From the NCBI GenBank assembly GCA_905178155.1, contig CAJINV010000001.1, positions 12,011,832 through 12,075,831 on the forward strand: DNA of 64,000 bases. The letters run 5' to 3'. Under the pieces are notes generated by a model. The model was not told the DNA's origin and searched no databases. It was given only the letters and a program-made list of their open reading frames with translations. The DNA is from Amoebophrya sp. A120. Lineage: Eukaryota > Protista > Dinoflagellata. Numbering within the stretch: the stretch's first letter is position 1; each line of letters begins with the position of its first letter. Positions 3,479 to 54,944 of this stretch are shown one piece after another. The translations under genes and the position numbers were made by a program.

Positions 3479-6400
3479 ATGTCGCGTGGTGCAGACCCAC
3501 GACAGGTGTCGTCCGACGTGGGGCTGTGGATGTACATGAACAGGACTGAACGGCGTAACCAGCTCGAGCCCCTGGACTATGACACCATCAATACTTGGCG
3601 AGACAGTGCGGGCATGGCCGAGGCACCGCCCTCCCCCGGCCCGCCACCAGTTTCCCCGCGCAACGGGGAGCAAGATCAGACGAACCTTTATTACGGTGGT
3701 GCAGAACAAAACTACTCCCCGTTCCTCGGCGCGGAGATGGAGCTGGAGCGGCAACAGACGGCCACCGTGCATAACCTTCCAGACGAGGTTGTTGCCTACA
3801 AGGAGCGGTCCGGTTCGTCGCTGGAGCCGTCGCCGACCAACGCCACCGCGACCGCCCGGCGGTCCCCGGTAAACGAGCAATTCGTGATCATGGACCCCGC
3901 AGCCGCGGTGAAGCGCAGAATAGAGCAGTTCAGTGGCGGAGACTACTTGCCCGGCCCGCGGCCGCTTACCTACAAGGACGGCATGGTGGCAGACAAGAAG
4001 ACGGGGCACTTGTATGTGCCCACCGCCTTGGATAAGAAGCTGGCGCGGCAACAGAGGAAGGAACGAAAACGGTGGGAGGAGACGGGCAGCTTGCACCAGC
4101 GTATCACGATGCAAAACTACCGGGACTTTGTCAATCCCGAGGAGGACAGGGCGCTGGTGCGGATGAGCAAGCGACGCGACATGCGCGAGGCTGTGCGGGG
4201 CGGGCATCTGGTGGATGCGAGAGATCTGTTTTTCCTGGGTCCCGCGGATTTGAAAAAGAAGTCTGATTTGGCTAAGCCTGGGATGATGCAGCGCATCCAG
4301 CGCAAGTCGACGCCAGAGGCGGATAGGGAAGAGAATTCTAGTACCAATACAGGAAGTGGAAATGTTAAAAGGAAGTCCTTCGGAGGTGGAAGCGATAATC
4401 AACACACCACCGAGGACATGGTTGCTATTCAGACCCCAAATGAAAAAGACCAGCAGGCCAAGAACACGAATCCGAATCTGAGTATGTACCCGGTTTATTC
4501 GGTGCGCGATTCGCAGGCGCAGCAGTACAACGTGCACAGCGGCGCGAATCTTTGGTCCGAGGCAAACAACTTCACGTCGTCGCTGATGCCACAAGATGGG
4601 GATTACGGCTACATAGACGACGAAGAGGAAGAGGACTACATATTGGACTCTGCTGCGCAAAAGATGAACATGGCAGCCGATTCCGCGGTTGGCGAGGACG
4701 ACTCTGACACTGACTTTGACGATGAGTTCTTCGCGCAAGAAGAGCCAAACTCCCAAGGTGGTCAGCCAGCGAGTTACGAGGTGCGATTGCAGGAGCAGAT
4801 GCGACAGCAGCGCCGGATGGAACTATGGGAGGCGCAGCGACGCCAGGAGTACCTGAACCTGCACAATGAGGTCCACCGGGAGGTTTTTGAATACGAGAAC
4901 CGGGGGCCGCGCAGTTACGAAAAGCAGCTGCGGCAGATGGAGGAAGACCGTTTTGCCGCTCTGCAGCGTGAGGCCCAGCAGCGAAACCAGTACGCCGCCT
5001 TATTTCAGCAGTTGGACGACGTGGAGCCGGCGCAGCCACTGCCGCCGAGTATCAACTGTAAAAATGTCTGGGTCTGGAAGATTGCCAGGTTTGTCATGCA
5101 TGTTTTGCATGACCCCTGACGTCTGTGATGCATGCCCTAGCATCACAGATTTTGTGAGGGCTACCTGATGCCTATACCGCATGACAAATGCTCTTTCAGT
5201 GCAGCAAAACTTGGACTCTCTTTCTTGCTGCTCATGCAATACAGATTTTTTTACAATCCAAAACCAGCATGACAAATTGGATTCTTCCAGACCCAGACAT
5301 TTTTACAGTTGATACCGAGCTACGAGGAGCGATTGTCGAGACTGCAGCAAGACTACGACAAGTTGGAGCTGAAACGGCAACAGGATTCCTCGTCCCGCAT
5401 CACGGATTTAAACGAGGCGATGCGGCACCATGAGGAGAAGCAGCCGGACAGTTTTGAGGACCGGCTCCGCCGCCAGGAGGAGCGGGACGCGCGAAAACGC
5501 GAGAACGTCCTGCGCGGGCGGGGCGGCGGGGCCGCGGGTGGCGCAGGTGTAGGCACCGGTGGTGGTGGTCACGAGAACATTTCTTATCCACTATCAGAGA
5601 CAAGTACGGGTGGGGGTGGACAAACCGGCTTGTCATCAACCGGTTCGCGTAGCCGCGCCCATCGTGCCTTCGATCTTCCGAGTAGTGCTTCGCCGCCACA
5701 ACTTGGAGCAGCGACTGTGAAAAATGCAGCACCAGGATTAGCAGCAAATAAGCAAGGTAGACCACCGGGCTCGCCGCTCCGGTGGTTTGAGGAGCCACAC
5801 GACCCGATTCCTGCCCGTCCGCCAAGCCTGAAGGTGCCCGACAAGTTGCCGTCCAACAATATTGTGTTGTCTCCGTCGACGGAATTGATTCACGACGGGG
5901 TGGTGACGAAAAAGCAGATTCAGATGCGGAATAGCGAACAAGAGCGGCCGTCGCTGGACGATTGGCACCCGTTGTGGCGCACGCCGACAATCCCGCTGGA
6001 CGAAGACGTGCTGAATTCGGAGGAGAATTCGCCTTTCCAAAAGCCGCAGGTGTACAACGGGGGTGCAGGAGGAGATACGGCGGGGAGTAGTAGCAACACC
6101 GGGATGAACATAAATTACAACCCATTCGAGGTGGGCCTGCTCGAGCCGAACACCGAGTCAACCGGGAACCAGACGTACAATACGGTCACGCACACGCCGA
6201 TGCCTTCCGAGCCGCGGACCATCCAAATTGCAGGCCGCATGGGAACTACGAACACCCCGACGACTTCGGCGTGGACCTCGGCGGAAACGGCAGCGACTAG
6301 TGGTCGTTCCTCGCCGGGCTCCAGGACGACCGGGATGATGAAACAAGAGAGAAACAGCAAGAAGCTGCAGGCTGTTCCCACCGCGGAACAGCTGCTCCAG

Positions 6401-18000: not shown

Positions 18001-20977
18001 GGGCATGATGAACGCGCTTTACTCGCGCGTTCCCGGCTGGGACCTGCCTTTGGCCGTGGCGAGGGATCCGCGTCTATGCTTCTGGGCACGGGCGACGAAA
18101 CCGGTGAGGAGCACCCCGACGGCATTATGGTGCAGGACGATTCCTCTGCAACCGATCAGGAAGGCCGGGGCGCATCCGAGATGCAGGACGCTGTGCAGCG
18201 CGACATTTCCATGAGTCCCGACATGTACGAGCAGTTTTTTTACAACAAGGCACTGGCGGTCGGGAAGAACGCACCCATCCCGCTCAGCCGCTTTCCTTTC
18301 GTGGGTCGCCGGCTCGCGTTCCCGCCCGTAGTGGTCTACAGCTACTACGCCTGCACCCTAGTTTTGCTCGCGTTGCTGCTTGCGCTGGCCGTGGATGAAG
18401 TGCTGCCTTCGGTCTTGTTCGCGTGCTCCTTCGCTGCGGTTGTCGCTCTAGCCTCTGCGGCAGCGGCTCTCGCCACCGCAACGACGCAAGCGTCCGCGCT
18501 GACAGCAATTTCCCTGGTGCGCCCGTCCAAAAGCTCGGGGAACGGGCAGAAGCTGGTCGCGGCCCTGAGCTCCGGCACCATGTGGCAGAGCGAGGCACTG
18601 GCGACCATGTTCGTGTTGCTAGTTTCCGGCGCATTGTTCGGAATTACATACGCGGAGCGGGAAAAAAGTAAGTTTCCCGGCAGCCCGGGACTCTCGGCAT
18701 TTGCACACGTCGTGCTCTTTCTCTGGTTACTGTTCACAATAGTCCTGCTTGTCTCCGGGACAGTGCTGGTATCCATCCTTGCAAAAGTGCAGCGGGCCAA
18801 CACGCAGCTCTGGAAAAAGTACCTTCTCACATCGCAGTCCGGCACCGCGGCAGCACCAGACGAACAATCGCGGACGACAGGCGGCGCGCCTCGGTTTTCA
18901 CAACCTTCATCCCGGACGATGAGGCTGGAAGAAGACCACGCCATGCAACAGAATGCGAACTTCAGTTTGGTTGGCACAAACGCTTTTAGCGTTGTGCCCG
19001 CAGCAAGTGCAGGAACTGCGGGACCACGGGCTTCCCCTGGGCCAAACACGCCCGCTGTAGAAGGAGTCGAGCCGGCGTTGCCCCCGTCATCTTCCCCGCC
19101 AACGGGAATGACCGCTGGCAGGACGGCTGCCACGGGGATGCACCGATCAAGCGCTGCCGAGGGTATTCTTTCTGCATTTGACCGGTACCGGGCGGAGACT
19201 AGTGGAGGTGATAATACACACCCACAACCTCCCTCAACGTATTCGACCCTATCGCAGCAAGCCCAGCAACAGTCGCTTATGGAAAATATTAACGGCGCAG
19301 ATGACCAATTCCAATTCGAAGGCCAGCACCGAGCAGACGAGCCGGCACACGATTCTGCGAGGATGCGTGATCAGCTGAACGCAACGTGGCGATCGGACAG
19401 CATGCCTCTGCGCGTGGTGGAAATCCCGCTTTCGGCGGGTCAGGAGCACAACCAGAATGGGCTGCGTCTCGACCAGCGGGAGAACGGCAGTTATGGCGTT
19501 TTCCAGAACAGCCGCGGCAGTTACAGTCCGGGGGGAGGTCACCAGCACGCCATAAACAGTTTGGAGAGCAGAGTGCCCAGCCTGGTACCTGCCGCGGGTG
19601 CAGCAGGCGGATCTACTGTGTCGAATGCCTCTACAGGCGGGGCTACGTTCCTGGCGGGAGCAAGTGCGATGTCAAGTAACACACTTATGACATCGACAGC
19701 GGCTGGCGGTCGTGGCAGAAGTGGTGCTAGCCTATCTGAAGTCGGTCTGGAACTACAGCAGTTATCAGCAGCAGATCGGCATCAAGTAGAGCAGCTGCAA
19801 TCTAATGTTTATCCAGTTCACCTGCAACCAGGGCAACAACAGCCGCGCCAGAGTCGTTATGTTTCGGGAAGCGCAGGTCAGCGGGCGACGGCTAAAACCT
19901 TTATCCGCGGCGCACCAACGTCATTTTTCGCTGCAAACGCCAAGCAGCTTCAATCGCTGATGGAGCAGAACTATCAGATGTAAAAATGTCTGGGTCTGGA
20001 AGAGTCATGCTGTTTTTGCATGACACAGAAGGTCTGGCATGGAAGCTCTAGCATTAGAGGTTTCGAGAAGCTTCCGCAATGCCGAATCCGCATGACAAAT
20101 CCCCCACTTTGGTGACAGAAAGTGGGCAGCTTTTGCTACCCATGCATGAGAGATTTTTCTGTGTTCTGAAATGTGCATCACAGATTCGGATTCTTCCAGA
20201 CCCAGACATTTTTACATTTGATAAGAACGGAGCGGTCATGGTCTTGTCTTTGTCTGCGGCGGTCACCTATCAAATGCAAAAATGTCTGGGTCTGGAAGAT
20301 TGCGAGATTTGTCATGCTTGTCTGGCATGACTAAAAAGTTTGTGATGCGTGTCCAAGAAGAGACCCTTTTGCCTGTCATGCAAAAACGCAGTTTGTGTTT
20401 GTCATGCGAAAAACGCAACACAAAGAAGCGCAGATATTTGTTTCTCATGCTTCGCTGTGCATTACAGAGCATTCACTATTCCCAACGCAACATTACAAGT
20501 TTCCAGACCCAGACACTTTTACATTTGATATCACCATCATGAACCTCCTGGCCCTCGCGATCGTCACAGGAGAGACTAAGTATGGGACTGCGAAGGTATT
20601 TTCGTCTTTTCAACACTCATCATTCATAGAATTCGAAAGTACTATTTGCGCTGAAGCCAATTCCACCAATAGCCATGAACCCTTGATGAAAGAGTCAACA
20701 GAAAACAACTACGGGATGCAAATCAACACTCAACTTTTCTCAGTATCACTTCTTCGTGCTTTTTTTCCTGTACGTTGAGTGGACGATCTTGTTTGCGGTC
20801 CTGTGCAAGTTGCTGCGTGAGCTGATCATGTTGACGGCCGACATGCGGGCGGTGGATCCAAGTCTTGGCCTGTCGCTGTTTGGGCATAAGGTGGACGCCA
20901 GCGCCTTTCGCCGCACCGTCGCCTTGCCGATACTCACACTGCTCGTCGCGATTATGGGCAGCCTGCTGTCCTCGTGA
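12047..20977 (+). CDS. Large Ser/Gly-rich multi-pass membrane protein of unknown function; exons 12047-13810, 13969-19971, 20229-20267, 20536-20595, 20744-20977
   Basis: GT-AG introns 13811-13968 and 20596-20743 plus two TIR elements. Spliced C-terminus reads MEQNGAVMVLSLSAAVTIMNLLALAIVTGETKYGTAKYHFFVLFFLYVEWTILF..., giving continuous hydrophobic helices; more TM segments at ~18330-18790. Confidence 0.7.
19972..20223. mobile_element. Introner/MITE-like element copy 2 (252 bp)
   Basis: 32-bp TIR with 1 mismatch (19972-20003 / 20192-20223); TSD AGAAC at 19967-19971 and 20224-20228. Confidence 0.95.
20268..20530. mobile_element. Introner/MITE-like element copy 3 (263 bp)
   Basis: 30-bp TIR with 2 mismatches (20268-20297 / 20501-20530); TSD TCACC at 20263-20267 and 20531-20535. 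Confidence 0.95.
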
Positions 20978-46747: not shown

Positions 46748-47734
<987 letters not shown>

Positions 47735-49704
47735 GTTGCGGGGCGTTCTAAAACTCACTCTTCATTTGCAGCTGCAAGAACACCAGAATTTTTCTACGTA
47801 TGGAAAAACCGCGCGGCATGAAACTTCTGCACGCGGTGAAAATAGTTTTAGGAAAAATGTTTGCTAATGCATCCTCCCGCGACCACGACCAGCTTTTGAT
47901 GAAACGGAAATTATGCAAAGTTCATCTTTTTCTGTCACGACTAACACTAAATTTATTGTCTAACTATAGCAAAACTTAACTTGTCATGATTTATCAGTCT
48001 GCTACAACTTAAACCGTTTTTAGTATCACAATACGCATTTGGAATAGGTCGATACGTCGGCTGTAAAAGTGTCAATTGCTAAAAGTCAAGTCTACTACAT
48101 TAGATCTCTTACTAAAACCGTAAGAAGGACATAAATCGTATGCTACATCCAACAGAAGCTCCCCCCAAAATGCCGGCTGCCGCAGCAGTGCTTGATCTTA
48201 TGATTGCGAAGCAGCACGGTATCGATTTTTTAGCTCTCTTGTATCCACCCACATTTTTGTTGCCCCCCACGAGTAGAAATTAATTTGGACGACGGCGACG
48301 TGCGACCACTTCCACCCCCGGATAAAAGCGACACGACGACACTCGCGCAGCTGCCTCGAAAACGGAAGTGGAGGAACAGAAGATTGCACACTGTCGGGAT
48401 CTTCGATTCCAGCTATTTCCCAGCGGACAGAAGGTCGGGCTTTGGTGCAACAGCCACGTAGTTGTAGCTTCCGAGATCAGGAGGAAAATCTAGCACCAGC
48501 AGTATCGCGAGGAAACAAGGAAGGCCGCAGAGTAAGTTCACTAGGCTTGTTCGATCTTCTCGACTACGACTTTTTACCCCCCACCTTACAGGAGTTTTTC
48601 GAAAAAAAACCGCGATCCAAATTATAATCGGACGATGTTGGTCTCCCCTGATATTCAACACATCACGACCTCCCTGACTGCTAATGCTATTCTTTGGCTT
48701 GCACAACTCATTTTTCCCGTCCTCTCGCAGGGCGATGTTTGATGTTGCACCAGGACTAGTACGATAATTGTCTCCGCGTCGGCGTTGCTCCTGCACGACG
48801 TGCAATCGAGGCAGGGCGCCCTTGCTCTTCCTGCCACTTCTGGAATTCATTTGATGTTCCACTTTGGCGAAACGATCCAACAAGCAGATTCACCTGAATG
48901 ATCACGAAACGCGATGACGATCGTAGACATCAAGACTCCTTGACGGGATGCTGCACCAGTGAAGAAGCGCGCAGATGAAGATCTAGTTCTACTTTGTTAA
49001 GTTTCGTGACCGGACTCGGATTTGAAAAGATCTACTACGTAGTTGACGGAGAAAGTTCAGACGCTCTAGTTATTTTTCGCTTGGGTGCATTGACGAGATT
49101 GGTTCTTGCGATCCTAATTTATTCTGGTGTCGACCCGTAGTTCTGCGTGTATGGTATCCTTCATTCGCTTCACGCCAAAGATCATTTAGTTTTTGCTACT
49201 GCGTTGATCATCCCGCTCGGGATTTCAACTTGTATCATCGATCACACATGCTAAATTGTCTACTGAGCCTGTAGTGGTCTGACTAGGAGCTGGAGCATCT
49301 TTGCCATGAATATGTTTTAAAGATAGCGCACAGTTGTTGCGGTGGTCTTTTTTTAAAAATAATTTTACTCGAGTCGGGGTCTTTGTTGGGACCGCCGGTC
49401 AGAAGAAATATTACGGCAAATAGAGACATCGGAATAGTTTGGTGTTACATCTGCATTTTATTTTTCTGTACGATAGTAATTAACCGCTTTGGCTATGGTT
49501 ACGACGTGCGTGAGGTTAGCTGTCACAGCTTTGGAACTTTGAGCGAAACGCGAAAAGGCGCGAGCAAGCGAAACACGCGAAGCACGCAAGCGCGGCATCT
49601 TGTGCCGGCCCCGCTGTGCCTACGTCGGGATTGCATTGCGAGCGCCAGTTTTTACGTATCGAGGGGCGCGACAGGCCTCACGCGCGTTCATGTATCTATT
49701 TGCT

Positions 49705-50691
49705 TTATTTCTTTCTCTTTTTAGCCGGTGCGGAGTGGCTGGGAGATGCTCCAGCAGCGTCTTTGAGCTGTATGGACTTCAGCAGACACGGGAGCGGGGT
49801 CGCTTTCGGATTAAGAAAGCACTCCGCTTCATAGTGCATCACGCTGTGCATCGTCTTCCAACCACCAATCTTCTGGACGGTTTCCCGGACCGTTCCACCG
49901 AGTAGGAGTGCCTGGGCGCCACCTTTTCGGAGTCCGTGGAGGCAGAGGAGGTCGCGACTGCGGCCTTCCGCAATGCGTTGCACCTTCGCCTTCCGGGTGA
50001 GGAACTTCCAGGTCGTGCGGTACTGCGCAACCGATAGCCGCGCGTCGCCGCCGTCCTTGGTGAGTCGTTGCGCGGCCTCGACCGGGCACACGACGGGGTT
50101 TGCTGGGTCCGCCACGAGTCGCACGGTTCGCCCGACCCCTTCTGGGTCCGTTTTCGTGCGATCTACTTCGAAGACAACCTCATGGCCGCCCTTGGTCTTC
50201 TCGACCCCGATGGTGGCGCGGACGAGCTCCTCGGGCCGCCACACAAGGCGGAACTGGCAGACCGCCATGTCAACGCAGGCCAACTCGTCCACGGTGGTGG
50301 CCGCCTTCTGCATGCTCTCGAGCATGCTCGCGGCGACCGGCTCGTAGCTCTCCGCCGCGCGGTCCCTCTTGAGGGCGTTGTTGATCAGCGTCGCGTAGGC
50401 CTGCTCCCCGAGGGAGAGCTCGTGATGCCGCAGCCGGTTCTCGGTGCGGACATGGGACACGTAGGCCGTCGCCGTGTTCGCGGCCATTTCCCCGGTGTGA
50501 ACCTTCACGCCCAGCCTGGCGGCAAAAAGCTCCAGGTTTGTAATCGACAGCGGGAAATCGACGAGGCCGCGAGCGGAGCACATCTGCTCATACTCCTGCA
50601 CCGCGGATGCCCTTGCGCTCGACGTCGCCTTCGCGTGCATCTGGCCCCGGAGCATGTCCAGGGCGGTGCCATCGTCGATCGCGTCCGACAT
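49705..50691 (-). CDS. Tyrosine recombinase (phage-integrase fold; DIRS/Ngaro/Crypton-type), 328 aa from the ATG at 50691
   Basis: Catalytic set R (VWRPEEL), K (RTKTDPEG), HxxR (HGLRKGGA), W (IGGWKT), Y (SVMHY); N-terminal core-binding-like domain (FPLS..LELFAA..ATAYVSHVR); C-terminal PAKKRKK; intronless and GC-rich. Confidence 0.9.
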   Translation of the reverse strand: MSDAIDDGTALDMLRGQMHAKATSSARASAVQEYEQMCSARGLVDFPLSITNLELFAARLGVKVHTGEMAANTATAYVSHVRTENRLRHHELSLGEQAYATLINNALKRDRAAESYEPVAASMLESMQKAATTVDELACVDMAVCQFRLVWRPEELVRATIGVEKTKGGHEVVFEVDRTKTDPEGVGRTVRLVADPANPVVCPVEAAQRLTKDGGDARLSVAQYRTTWKFLTRKAKVQRIAEGRSRDLLCLHGLRKGGAQALLLGGTVRETVQKIGGWKTMHSVMHYEAECFLNPKATPLPCLLKSIQLKDAAGASPSHSAPAKKRKK

Positions 50692-50874
50692 CTTTATCTC
50701 GTTCCGGGAGGGTGGGCGGGGAACGAGAAACCAAAAGGCCCGCACGTCGTTGCCCGGAGCGGTGTCGTCTCCGTTAGCTGGCAGCGCTTAGCCTCATTTT
50801 GCTATTGATAAAAGGGACGGACGCAAAATATCAATTAAAAATTGCAACCAACTAATTCACTTTTGGAGTGGAAA

Positions 50875-53800
50875 ATGTGCAGAAAATCGACCACCGGGTC
50901 TGGCTCTCGAGCGCGCCATCGTATGATGGTTGCCTCAATAGTTTTTGCGGGCTGCCGTGGGATCTTTTTCCAGAGCGGAATTTTTTTTGTCGACGCCGTC
51001 GCTTTCGTGGCTCCGCACAAGGTCAGCAAAAAGAGGTCGTCTACGGAAGGCGAGGAGCTCGCGACTCCGAAGACACGACCAATCGTCTGGGCGGACGTAA
51101 AGGAAGATGACGAAGAGGAACCAGCTCCAGTGCAACAGCCATCAAGCGTACAAGGAGTTCAGGCGTCGCAAGAGGAACGCACTTCATTTGCGCAACAAGG
51201 GCCTGCAAATAATAATAACGCAAATGCAGTATTTTTACCGACACCAGAAGCTGCAGCCACAGTTCCTCCCCCGCCCGCACCCTATGTGCGTTCGGCCGGC
51301 ACAGAAGGGCACGAATATGGACAGTGCGCGCTTCTGCATTGTAAGTACGCGGCAAAAGTAAGGGGGTGCAAAGACGGGGCAAACTGCGTGCGGTGCCATC
51401 TATGCCCGAGGGACGTTGGTAAACCGAGCACGTCGGAATCGTCGTGGTCCTGGAACAAATCAAAAAGGAGCTATGCGACAAGATGGTACAACAACGACCA
51501 GTGCGCCGGAGGACCATGCTGGGCTGCTGAGGGCGGTAGTCGAAACGTCAAGACCCGCGGGGGCCCAGCTGGAGGTGGTTCTGGTTCGTCCTCCTCCGGA
51601 AGTGGCGTTATGAGGGTCGATTGACCATAACCATTCAGCCCATTTAAGCCATTCGCAAAAAATGAAAAGCAAAACCGTAGGGGCTTGCTCTCCGGGGTCT
51701 TTTCCTGGGGGCAGGCTGGTTGCAAGTATAGACCTACCCCTCGGCGCTGCGGAGCCTGTCTTCCTCGTCCCCGAACTTCGGGGCGTGGTCTCGCGGCTAA
51801 GCGGCGGGCTCCGCGTCATGGCACGGCAAAATAACCGAAAATGACAAGGAGCCGAGCTGGAACGAGGGGACTTGTTGATGAACAATTACCGGCGTAGCTA
51901 CTTCGTTTTGACTAAATTCGGACCATTTTTCGTTGTTGCAAAGTTGCGCGCTTCGGGTCGTCTTTTCGATTTCGGCCGCCCGGCGCGGCGAGAGAATTTG
52001 TTGAGAGAGGAAAAAATGCAGCGCCTTTCAGGCCAGAAAAAAAAAAATCTAGCTCAAAGCGCGCGCTGGCCATTCGGGCCATTCGAGCCATTCGCGCGGG
52101 CCGCCAGGGAGCGGCCGGCGCACCGTTCAGGGGCAGTCCATTCGACCCATTCGCGCGCGCGAACGGCCCGAATGGGCTGAATGGATCGAATGGACCTAAC
52201 GGCCTGAATGGCTCGAGTTTTCGGTCCATTTAGGCCGGCCCGGTGGGCCGCTCGATCCATTCGGGCCCTGCGAATGGGCCGAATGGGTCGAGTGGCTCGA
52301 ATGGATTTCCGGTCGTTTTTCGAATGGATTGAATGGCCCGCGGCTGAACGGGCCCGCGCGCCGGCTGGGCCGGCCTAGTCCGAAGGCCTGGCAGTCTGGC
52401 CGGAAGCGCTGTGGTGGAGGGCCGGGCGCCTCGTTTGCGTCATATTTTTTTGCCTGCTGGCAGGATGACGGAATCGAAAATGCCATAGAAGCGGAGGGGA
52501 GCATTGGCTGGCGTAGCTGGCATCTTGCGCTGCGTGCGCGTGGGCCCTTTGCTCCGGCCGAGCCTCGGGTCGTCGTTTCGCCACCATCGCGTCTCGGCTT
52601 GGATTCGCGGGAGTTGTGCGAGGGGTGGCGCACCAGGTCCCAGGTGGAGATAATCTGGAGCAGCATTGCTGTCGGGCTCCGTGGAGATGAATGGCCGAAA
52701 TGTTCAGCAGTGCCACGACCGGGAACACAGATGGCGGAGAAGCTGGCCCCGCGACCATTCTGGCTCAAGTTGGTTTGCATGGAAATTTTTTTTTTTTTCT
52801 TCAATGGTCTAAATGGCTCGAATGGTTCTGGTTCGTCCTCTTCCGGAAGTGGTGCACAACGATTGTTCCCCACAGACAGCAGAAAAATCGGATTCGGATC
52901 GCTGGCCAGTCACCCGAGCAACAGGGCAGCTGTGGACCGAAAGGAGCGGAGTGATGCTGCAGACGCGACGCCTCCGAACGCGGACACTGCATCGACGAGG
53001 ACCAGTCTGCCTTCCAAGGGCTCGTTTTCTTCAATTTCGGAGTTGTACGATCCCGACCGAGCAGACCGGGCGTGGCAGAAGAAACAAGTGCGTCGTGGTG
53101 GTAATCGTGGCAGAGGAGGACGGGGGCGCGGTAGAGATAATCCGTGTGCAGAAGGAACAGAAGCCTCTTTGTCCGACGACGCCTCTCCCACTGAGGAACA
53201 ATGGCAAGAAGACCCTGCATTCCGGGAATCGGAATCGGCAATGCAAGCATTTCCGCCAGGCGACTTCGTTTCCGCAATGGAATCGGACGAAACTACTTTG
53301 CCAGTCTCGATGGTGTGGGTTGGTGCTGATGGCACTTGTGTTGTGTCTCCCGCCTCGCCCGGCGAATGCGAACAGTTCGGGTTTGCACTAACTAGTGCAC
53401 CAGAACAGATGCAAATGATGGAATCACAGTCGTGTTATTTCGTTCCGGCACAGACGAGCGGCGATATGCAGAACTGCTGGAGCCCGGCGGATTATGATCA
53501 AAGCGAAGAGTATGGTTCCATATCTTGCGCCGCTGTTCCTGTTGTTGTACCCGATGCGCCCTGCTATGCACTCGCAGATGCTGTGGCGCAAGGGGTTCAT
53601 GTTGACAAAGACTACTTGCAACGACAAAAGGAAGAGGAATGGAGCAAATTTGCTTTCCAGGGCGGCCCACAGTCCGGGCTGACAGGTGGGTGTTTTGTTC
53701 CGCCACCTCCGGTTCCGGTTGCGCAAGCGCGACGTGAAGGGGCGGACTCGGTGGGATTCATTTCTCAGCTTCCCTTTCGTCCGACAGAAGGTGCAGGGGC

Positions 53801-54944
53801 TCTTCCACCGTCACCCTTTTCGCCCGAGATATCGGGAGTAGTACCGGTCCTGCTACCATTCTACCAGTTTGATGAAACCGCTACTACTCCTACATACACA
53901 AGCCATCATGGGAGTATGACGGTCCCTGACGACTTGCGAGCAGAAGGAGCGTCGGAGCGACTTCGCGACACGAGATCTGCCACTGCCGGTACAGCTATGT
54001 CTTTACTTTTTTGATTTTAAAGTGGAAAAATTCGTACTCGTAGTCGAAACAAGGTTCTCGAGCACGCAAAAATAAAGTGGATTGATCCCACAAAAATCAT
54101 CATTGAACAGGCCACTCTGCTCTTGCTGAGCAAGTCAGCCCATCCCCCGAAGTCGGGCAGCCCAGTGACGAATCTTCTCTGGAGGCCCTATTTCCACCGT
54201 CAGCTTCTTCTGGTGCTTCTTCGACAACCGAGACGTTTCACCAGACGAGACAGTATTTTTTTCTTCAGTACCTTCGATCGAGACGACGGCTTTTGTATAA
54301 GTATACCTCCTAGAAGTAGAAGTTTGATATTTTTGTCAGTTGAAAAAAGCCACCTAGACACCGAAGCAAAAGTTGAATTTCGAAGTGCAAAATGTACTTA
54401 CAGCACGAGCTCATCTGACGGGGAAGAGGGTGACCTGGGTGTCCCTGGCACACCGAAAGGCATTTCTTTGCGGGCCTGGGCGGAGATCAACGGGGAGTCG
54501 ATGAGCAGACAAAGACAAGCTGTACAGCCCACCACCGGAAAAATGGCCAGCCAAGGACATGTGAGCGAGGCGATCACGTCAAAGCCTGGACGAGTTGCTC
54601 ACGACATAACGTGTGCTACTACTCGTGAAGATCATTCTAAGAGCGGGAGACCACGGCGCAAACAAGCCATCTTGCGGCGGACCCGAAGTGAGAGCCGTTT
54701 CGATCGGCAGCCACTCCGGCTGGAGAGTCGTGACGCCGAAGCGATCGAAGGCGCAGCGCAAGCAATCGCGGCTCCAGCAGAGAGTGGAGGATCGGTGCGC
54801 ACTAGCAGCCGGCGTGCGGACCGTAGAAGCGGTGGGTTGGGGGATCCGAATGCAGAAGACTCGGACTCCGGGTATGGTTCGCTCAGGGGTTACAATCTCA
54901 ACGTTATCCTGAAAATCGAGATCTCTACCGGAAATGCTGCATAA
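50875..54944 (+). CDS. CCCH-type zinc-finger protein interrupted by a 1247-bp insertion; exons ~50875-51605, 52853-53988, 54111-54252, 54404-54944
   Basis: HEYGQCALLHCKYAAKVRGCKDGANCVRCHLC motif; GSGSSSSGSG encoded on both sides of the insertion; GT-AG introns 53989-54110 (phase 1) and 54253-54403 (phase 2) join in frame; RGG stretch at ~53090-53135. Start codon uncertain. Confidence 0.65.
52068..52350. repeat. Inverted arrays of a ~9-bp unit CCATTCGnn / nnCGAATGG
   Basis: e.g. GGCCATTCGGGCCATTCGAGCCATTCG (from 52068), CCATTCGCGCGCGCGAACGG palindrome (~52147-52166), CGAATGGGCTGAATGGATCGAATGG, CGAATGGGCCGAATGGGTCGAGTGGCTCGAATGG. Confidence 0.9.
52749..52769 (+). other. Degenerate dinoflagellate spliced-leader (DinoSL) relic
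   Basis: CCGCGACCATTCTGGCTCAAG matches CCGTAGCCATTTTGGCTCAAG at 17/21 positions (14/15 at the 3' end); followed ~17 nt later by a T-tract. Confidence 0.55.

What the first reader, a model, noticed from the sequence alone, without database searches (positions are those of the whole stretch)
51576..52852. 1247-bp insertion with a 30-bp att-like direct repeat inside a zinc-finger exon, next to the recombinase
Seen: a 30-bp duplication (29/30 identical) of coding sequence (GSGSSSSGSG). Deleting 1247 nt fuses ORF 50842 to ORF 52329 in frame, and downstream canonical introns remain intact. Imperfect TIRs are present, and the right arm (GAATGGTTCTGGT) runs into the duplicated target, so the target resembles the element end. 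A 30-bp duplication is far longer than typical DDE TSDs. Inference: homology- or site-directed integration such as tyrosine recombinases perform, possibly by the YR 0.9 kb away, producing a second and larger class of removable intron-like element. The link to the YR rests on proximity only. A canonical alternative exists (GT 51602 to AG 52875 is also in frame).
Basis: partly seen in the sequence, partly recalled or inferred. Interest (0 to 1): 0.8.

Follow-up and report, generated by a model that had tools for sequence, protein, structure and literature searches.

The report
Clipped transposon spliced as non-canonical intron
A 1.2-kb jumping-gene remnant inside a gene of the marine parasite Amoebophrya is missing, to the exact base, from that gene's transcript assemblies although it has no normal splice acceptor; its 30-base flanking repeat likely arose when DNA repair overwrote one end with host sequence, and likely not through the neighbouring recombinase, which lies in a separate mobile element.

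Summary
The repeat is real (29/30, extending to 30/32) and both junctions are in DNA contigs at single-copy depth. The window is Amoebophrya sp. A120. Transcript contigs (3 of 3 runs, one sample) skip exactly 51607-52853 (GT..GT) and keep the left copy's bases, which argues against a reverse-transcriptase artefact. The insert belongs to a small multicopy family with imperfect inverted ends. Three other copies have unrelated left flanks. Another copy's right end runs at least 17 nt further and mirrors the left end (13/17). So this copy lost its right tip, and the 'att-like' repeat is a 10-bp element/host microhomology plus 22 bp of duplicated host sequence. The recombinase is real and Cre-like but sits in its own multicopy Crypton-like element with AATTAA at both ends, itself spliced out of the same gene's 5' UTR. 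YR-driven integration is not supported. Verdict: a known kind (non-canonical introner) with an unusual repaired end, useful as a natural mutant for the unsolved Amoebophrya splicing mechanism. This scan noted similar signal-free transposon introns in other dinoflagellate DNA.

The parts
51607..52853 (+). Segment skipped in transcript contigs, 1247 nt, ends GT..GT (a cut one base further right, TT..TG, fits as well)
   Evidence: joint 51606>52854 in X3, X5 and X4; matches public protein P0061
51608..52832 (.). Element body: non-coding member of a small multicopy family with imperfect inverted ends; right tip (17 nt or more) missing
   Evidence: other copies leave the window sequence before 51605, 51607, 51608 and behind 52832; variant contigs 80-99% alike; no Pfam hit in its two longest frames
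51608..51656 (+). Left inverted arm with three CCATT units 9 nt apart
52787..52832 (+). Right inverted arm (three AATGG units), clipped at 52832
52070..52340 (.). Internal cluster of the same 9-nt units in both orientations
51576..51607 (+). Left (exonic) copy of the 32-bp duplication; its bases are the ones kept in RNA
51576..51585 (+). 10-bp host sequence identical to the element's sub-terminal right arm (microhomology)
   Evidence: another copy matches the window through 52832 and then continues with element sequence; the 10-mer occurs only at 51576 and 52823 in the window
52833..52854 (+). 22 bp of duplicated host sequence in place of the family's right tip plus a short target duplication; 2 differences from the left copy, both at synonymous third positions
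   Evidence: codon reading from the sequence
50875..51606 (+). Host coding exon 5' of the insert; CCCH-like spacing at 51340-51399
52854..53987 (+). Host coding exon 3' of the insert
49478..50838 (.). Separate 1361-bp Crypton-like element, AATTAA at both ends (49478-49483, 50833-50838), multicopy
   Evidence: other copies leave the window before 49478 and behind 50838, 2 contigs each
49705..50691 (-). Intact 328-aa tyrosine recombinase ORF (R152, K180, H252, R255, W278, Y287)
49468..50814 (+). GT..AG intron in the host 5' UTR that removes most of the YR element (host GT 10 nt outside, element AG 24 nt inside)
   Evidence: joint 49467>50815 in X3 and X5; first ATG 60 nt downstream

Best explanation
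The 1247-nt segment is a non-coding member of a small multicopy inverted-repeat element family and is skipped exactly in transcript contigs; it likely entered by ordinary transposase insertion with a short (about 3-5 bp) target duplication, and microhomology-driven repair likely replaced its right tip with host sequence, producing the 32-bp repeat. Shown: repeat, both DNA junctions, RNA joint, unrelated left flanks of other copies, longer right end in another copy, separate ends of the YR element. Inferred: a broken or stalled right end annealed at the 10-bp match 32 bp upstream of the insertion point (on the same chromosome or on an empty allele) and copied host DNA through the insertion site. 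Also inferred: the transposase is a DDE-type enzyme encoded elsewhere, and removal is by the relaxed Amoebophrya splicing machinery, cutting at the element's left end and at the far end of the right-hand repeat copy without an AG.
For: RNA joint 51606>52854 at depth 38.1, 19.6 and 29.7 in X3, X5, X4; the X3 and X5 contigs also skip three GT..AG introns; contigs inside the insert reach only 2-3.6. Left-copy bases are kept at both differing positions (0 other letters over 50815-51606). Family left end at 51607/8 with three other, mutually unlike flanks. A 17-nt continuation behind 52832 in X1 and X7 mirrors the left terminus at 13/17, a score reached at 4 of about 128,000 positions of the window and found here in the exact mirror register. 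A match of 10 nt or more between the last 40 nt of the arm and a random 50-nt host stretch occurred in 4 of 1472 draws, so a junction inside such a match points to homology-guided joining. Full-length element (about 1242) plus 5 equals 1247, and the three small introners in the window have 5-bp duplications. A120 has 65% non-canonical introns with 3-5 nt repeats (PMC7789003). Its introner families show 3' GT and TG ends (family 2: 80 and 354 of 9716) and, where given, duplications of 2-11 bp (PMC12130899 Dataset S2).
Against: The right flanks of other copies could not be seen, so their duplication lengths are unknown. Only one other right end was seen, and it stops at a contig end, so 17 nt is a lower bound. 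No transposase was found; a copy with 4596 extra letters at 51832 could not be read. The two arms are imperfect and carry 9-nt repeats, unlike the near-perfect arms of the small introners. All RNA support is contigs from one sample whose RNA status is a guess by the tool. The in-register spacing (17+5) is left to chance or selection in this reading.
Confidence: 0.65

Rival explanations
1. End-targeted insertion: the family's transposase bound the host sequence as a look-alike of its own right end, joined the left end at the normal end-plus-spacer distance, and host repair resolved the right end through the homology, as in targeted insertion of IS911 next to its own inverted repeats.
For: The 22 host bases beyond the microhomology equal a 17-nt tip plus 5 nt. 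The host match extends to 14 of 18 columns. A single-end transfer plus branch migration model exists for IS911, IS30 and IS26 (PMC7986276 passages).
Against: Three other copies show no such look-alike in the 28-30 nt upstream of their left ends. The register would arise by chance in roughly 1 of 4 to 1 of 10 such events (my estimate) or by selection for a spliceable, in-frame product. The bacterial model does not by itself duplicate the target.
Confidence: 0.13
2. The family makes long target duplications (32 bp or more) as a rule, and this copy later lost its tip by deletion between the two 10-bp matches.
For: It gives the same final structure. Long or variable duplications are known for other element classes (Dualen and R9 LINEs, Replitrons; PMC9977147 and PMC10288648 passages). 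Right flanks of other copies were not visible.
Against: Those precedents are not inverted-repeat elements. Reported A120 introner duplications are 2-11 bp. It does not explain why element plus 5 equals 1247.
Confidence: 0.12
3. The neighbouring tyrosine recombinase integrated a circular form of the insert at an att-like site.
For: The YR is intact, multicopy and Cre-like. The junction lies in shared homology. One low-depth X8 contig joins an internal part of the element through 46 unseen letters to the left end, which could be read as a circle.
Against: No common target among four left flanks, and an intact mirrored right end exists elsewhere. The YR element has its own 6-bp ends, shared by other copies, as described for Cryptons (PMC3212892, PMC9977147 passages). 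No similarity between the two elements. No empty-site joint in X1, X7, X8 (contigs show presence, not absence). The 46 letters fit 18 + 28 letters of two other loose ends, which suggests a nested copy (inference).
Confidence: 0.04
4. The RNA joint is not splicing: it comes from reverse-transcriptase template switching across the repeat, or from cells that lack the insertion.
For: Long direct repeats plus strong structure favour template switching (PMC4176328 passages). The RNA sample differs from the DNA sample, and all RNA runs laid with signal are one sample.
Against: A switch made after copying the right repeat would carry its T bases; the contigs carry the left copy's C at both places (inference from the direction of reverse transcription). 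The joined form outweighs insert-bearing contigs about tenfold. The RNA sample holds this copy: X4 has 51588-51756 unspliced with 0 differences (only 20 nt on the exon side), X3 has 51899-52085 and X5 has 52622-52789 with 0 other letters.
Confidence: 0.06

Closest known systems
Non-canonical introns / introner elements of Amoebophrya sp. A120 (Farhat et al. 2021, PMC7789003; Gozashti et al. 2025, PMC12130899)
   Same: Same organism; inverted arms, repeat at the exon/intron borders, non-AG 3' end, removal of element plus one repeat copy restoring the frame; multicopy.
   Different: About five times longer than the typical 240 nt; repeat 32 bp rather than 3-5 (2-11 in Dataset S2); lacks the TAT-7-AAA end motif; right tip missing, so the 3' cut lies 21 nt beyond the last element base. 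Family 103 of Dataset S2 (27 copies, about 1.19 kb, 16-nt TIR, 3-bp TSD) is of similar size but could not be compared, as no sequence was shown.
Crypton DNA transposons (Kojima and Jurka 2011, PMC3212892; CryptonF-1_cRei, PMC9977147)
   Same: Applies to the neighbouring 49478-50838 element: YR only, 6-bp direct repeat at both termini, no terminal inverted repeats, 5' UTR insertion.
   Different: Does not apply to the 1247-nt insert. The YR shows only a weak PF00589 hit and no further Crypton domain in Pfam. It is removed from the host transcript as a GT..AG intron; the two Crypton introner families in Dataset S2 are in Tetraparma and Pelagomonas.
Targeted insertion of IS911/IS30/IS26 next to their own inverted repeats (review PMC7986276)
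   Same: One end joined next to an end-like target, the other resolved by host recombination.
   Different: Bacterial; needs near-complete end identity; not described as duplicating the target; here only a lead.
Microhomology-mediated end joining / template switching (1-16 bp homology; described in PMC9977147)
   Same: Junction lies within a 10-bp perfect homology.
   Different: Here it produced a duplication beside a transposon end rather than a simple deletion.

Membership tests
Amoebophrya introner element | Removed from mRNA with frame restored | tested here: met
   (contigs of one sample; public protein agrees)
Amoebophrya introner element | Repeated in the genome | tested here: met
   three other left ends and variant contigs in X1
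Amoebophrya introner element | Inverted repeat joining the two intron ends | tested here: inconclusive
   sub-terminal arms pair; family termini mirror at 13/17; this copy lacks the right tip
Amoebophrya introner element | 3-5 nt direct repeat at the borders | tested here: not met
   32 bp here; other copies not measurable
Amoebophrya introner element (A120 type) | End motif TAT, seven bases, then AAA | tested here: not met
   met by the three small elements, not by this insert
DDE TIR transposon (non-autonomous) | Cognate DDE transposase in a full-length copy | not testable with these tools
   no genome held; the 4596-nt extra segment could not be read
DDE TIR transposon (non-autonomous) | Constant short target duplication in intact copies | not testable with these tools
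   right flanks of other copies not shown
YR site-specific integrative element (insert) | Common target core across copies | tested here: not met
   four unlike left flanks
YR site-specific integrative element (insert) | Recombinase gene inside, or ends shared with the YR element | tested here: not met
YR site-specific integrative element (insert) | Precise DNA excision or circles | tested here: inconclusive
   no empty-site joint in X1, X7, X8; contigs drop rare forms
Crypton (neighbouring element) | Tyrosine recombinase as the only enzyme, catalytic residues present | tested here: met
   (Cre 3crx, E 2.9e-9, TM 0.68; model pLDDT 92)
Crypton (neighbouring element) | 4-6 bp direct repeat at both termini, no TIR | tested here: met
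   AATTAA at both ends, other copies match through both; only a short sub-terminal inverted match
Crypton (neighbouring element) | Placement in a described subgroup (F, S, A, I) | tested here: inconclusive
   no subgroup domain in Pfam; no tree with reference Cryptons was made; one distant relative carries a reverse transcriptase (P0029)
Crypton (neighbouring element) | Excision as a circle | not testable with these tools
   no such joint in X1

The most novel reading that the evidence does not exclude
A eukaryotic transposase inserted next to a host look-alike of its own end, in exact register, and Amoebophrya removes the product by choosing the 3' cut where the intron's end repeats the end of the 5' exon, needing neither an AG nor paired transposon tips. 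That would be a repeat-guided splice rule explaining why any duplicating insertion becomes an intron in this lineage. Next to it sits an intact, unannotated Crypton-like recombinase element that is itself an intron.
Probability: 0.15. Interest if true: 0.75.

Novelty: new variant of a known kind. Interest (0 to 1): 0.42.

Why it matters
How Amoebophrya removes tens of thousands of signal-free, transposon-derived introns is stated as open in PMC7789003 (sections 10, 16). In typical copies the hairpin base and a 3-5 nt repeat coincide, so their roles cannot be separated. Here the right tip is gone, the repeat is 32 bp and carries two marker differences, and an in-frame GT-AG option is passed over. 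The locus therefore fixes the cut to within one base and separates 'hairpin tip', 'distance from the arm' and 'repeat identity' as rules. The adjacent element adds an intact YR-coding intron-forming element in an alveolate; the catalogue read lists none for A120. It is not evidence for a new recombinase-driven class of introns at the 1247-nt insert.

Tried and rejected
No whole genome is held, so no genome-wide copy search was possible. No RNA holder is on record. An exact 28-nt left-end pattern found 0 matches in metagenome contigs. The word-based protein search found no YR relative, not even the ORF itself, which suggests it is unannotated; the full HMMER search found 59 at E up to 0.001. 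The single-sequence fold of the YR failed (pLDDT 38); the alignment-based one worked. 36 loci with YR relatives (35 metagenome, 1 viral) share no DNA similarity with either element and are single copies, so their ends could not be defined. Rfam: 0 matches at E up to 0.1 in 49300-53000. Pfam: nothing meaningful for the host protein or the insert frames. File 3 of PMC12130899 was the wrong dataset. No look-alike of the insert and no notes on this genome in earlier scan findings. Rejected: assembly overlap; canonical GT51602-AG52875 as the main form; composite YR-plus-insert element (single-copy exon lies between); Replitron (direct terminal repeats; this family has inverted ends).

Full report
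Observation. It runs two bases further, to 30/32. The longest exact repeat in 200 shuffles of the 7-kb region was 16 nt; here there are 18 exact plus 11 after one mismatch. Run X1 has contigs across both junctions with no differences, at depths 47.9 and 43.5 beside a flank depth of 42.5, so this is not an assembly overlap. X1's kind is not on record and it may be the source sample; I read it as DNA because it covers all introns evenly.

Organism. The exon upstream of the insert is 100% identical to a public protein labelled Amoebophrya sp. A120 (P0061, 856 aa). Three small elements in the window (5050-5314, 19972-20223, 20268-20530) have near-perfect inverted ends starting TAT, seven bases, AAA, and 5-bp duplications. 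That is the A120 introner signature in PMC7789003 (section 11).

RNA. Contigs of X3 and X5 and X4 all join 51606 to 52854, skipping 1247 nt with ends GT..GT; a cut one base further right fits as well. These are 3 of 3 such runs laid, but one sample, and the tool only guesses that they are RNA. The X3 and X5 contigs also skip three GT..AG introns, as mRNA would. The joined form has depth 19.6-38.1; contigs inside the insert reach 2-3.6. So the public gene model already treats the insert as an intron. The two repeat copies differ at 51594/52841 and 51606/52853, and the RNA carries the left copy's C at both. Reverse transcriptase reaches the right copy first, so a template switch through the repeat (PMC4176328 passages) should carry the right copy's T bases; it does not. 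An empty allele is unlikely because low-depth contigs of this very copy are in the RNA sample (X4 51588-51756, X3 51899-52085, X5 52622-52789). The X4 piece has only 20 nt on the exon side, below the tool's bridging standard. AG dinucleotides at 52848, 52874, 52878 and 52881 are not used in the contigs; rare forms would be dropped. Raw RNA run X9 gave 0 reads and is no test.

The family. In X1 the insert is covered by variant contigs 80-99% alike, at summed depth mostly 120-260 (summed depth is not a copy number). Three other left ends leave the window sequence before 51605, 51607 and 51608, with flanks unlike each other and unlike this target. The family's left end is therefore 51607/8 and it has no common target. 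In X1 and X7 (same sample) another copy matches through 52832 and continues with 17 other letters to a contig end. Their reverse complement matches 51608-51623 at 13 of 17. That score is reached at 4 of about 128,000 positions in the window, and here it falls in the mirror register. So the first 10 bp of the right 'repeat' are element sequence that happens to equal host 51576-51585, and this copy lacks a right tip of 17 nt or more. A match of 10 nt or more between the arm's last 40 nt and a random 50-nt host stretch occurred in 4 of 1472 draws. The remaining 22 bp are duplicated host DNA, and 22 equals 17 plus 5. Both differences between the copies are synonymous third positions, which would fit copying from another allele (inference; about 1 in 10 by chance). 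One X1 contig carries 4596 extra letters at 51832, and one X8 contig joins 52203 through 46 unseen letters to 51607; neither could be read. The right flanks of other copies were not visible, so the family's normal duplication length is unknown.

The recombinase. ORF 50691-49705 (minus) has a weak PF00589 hit below cut-off (E 4e-4), 59 relatives at E up to 0.001, and R152, K180, H252, R255, W278, Y287. Its model (pLDDT 92) matches Cre (E 2.9e-9, TM 0.68). Of 10 relatives looked up, 3 carry names: Diplonema papillatum, Perkinsus olseni and Amoebophrya AT5.2. Other copies in X1 match the window from 49478 and up to 50838, 2 contigs at each end; AATTAA stands at both places. That is the Crypton layout of 4-6 bp terminal direct repeats (PMC3212892 passages; PMC9977147 passages). 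X3 and X5 join 49467 to 50815 (GT..AG). The RNA keeps 24 nt of the element's end, so this is splicing and not an empty site; the first ATG is 60 nt downstream. The YR element and the insert share nothing beyond chance, and single-copy exon lies between them. Proximity is the only link.

Mechanism. Most likely (0.65) an ordinary transposase insertion with a short duplication, then repair that annealed the right arm at the 10-bp match and copied host DNA through the insertion site. The transcript is then cleared by the lineage's relaxed splicing. The insertion and repair steps are inferred. Rivals: end-targeted insertion as for IS911 (0.13; PMC7986276 passages), a family with long duplications (0.12), RT artefact or empty allele (0.06), YR att integration (0.04).

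Known ground. PMC7789003 reports 65% non-canonical introns in A120 with 3-5 nt repeats and an unknown splicing mechanism (passages; sections 10, 11, 12, 16; supplement passages and part 3 of 5); 'recombinase' occurs 0 times in its main text and supplement. In Dataset S2 of PMC12130899 I read all 58 A120 rows, not the A25 rows. Duplications, where given, are 2-11 bp; 3' GT and TG ends occur; none is finally classed as Crypton, although families 86 and 93 carry Crypton labels in intermediate columns. The two final Crypton families are in Tetraparma and Pelagomonas. No sequences were shown, so this insert may be one of the listed families (family 103 is of similar size), and one supplementary file was not searched. 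Searches for Amoebophrya with Crypton, with introner and tyrosine recombinase and with splicing mechanism since 2021 returned no paper describing this locus type or a Crypton in Amoebophrya; subscription journals are largely missing from the library.

Verdict. Observation confirmed; removable intron-like element confirmed; YR-att integration not supported. New variant of a known kind, interest 0.42. Its value is as a natural mutant for the splicing rule, and for the intact Crypton-like intron next door.

Noticed in passing
window 49478-50838: Intact multicopy Crypton-like tyrosine-recombinase element with AATTAA ends, removed from the host 5' UTR as a GT..AG intron; the ORF was not found in the protein collection, so probably unannotated. 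Shorter derivatives sharing its ends appear as loose ends at 49653, 50721, 50758.
   Followed up: yes
window 51832 (run X1, 4820-nt contig): Another family copy has 4596 extra letters here: a candidate autonomous element or a nested insertion.
   Followed up: no
window 52139-52203 and 51607-51687 (run X8), 52155-52192 (run X7): A contig joins the internal repeat cluster through 46 unseen letters to the left end, and another leaves at the same place; probably a copy nested in a related repeat.
   Followed up: partly
window 5050-5314, 19972-20223, 20268-20530: Three related 250-265 bp introners with long inverted ends and 5-bp duplications; two lie 44 bp apart. Their splicing was not tested.
   Followed up: partly
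window 51594/52841 and 51606/52853: Both differences between the repeat copies are synonymous third positions; the second is a CpG to TpG type change.
   Followed up: partly
window 49510-49530 and 50776-50797: Short sub-terminal inverted match inside the YR element, a candidate recombinase binding pair.
   Followed up: no
window 46953-47276: EF-hand (centrin-like) coding fragment.
   Followed up: no
protein P0029: A distant YR relative of 1409 aa also carries a reverse transcriptase domain, hinting at a link of this YR group to DIRS-like elements.
   Followed up: no
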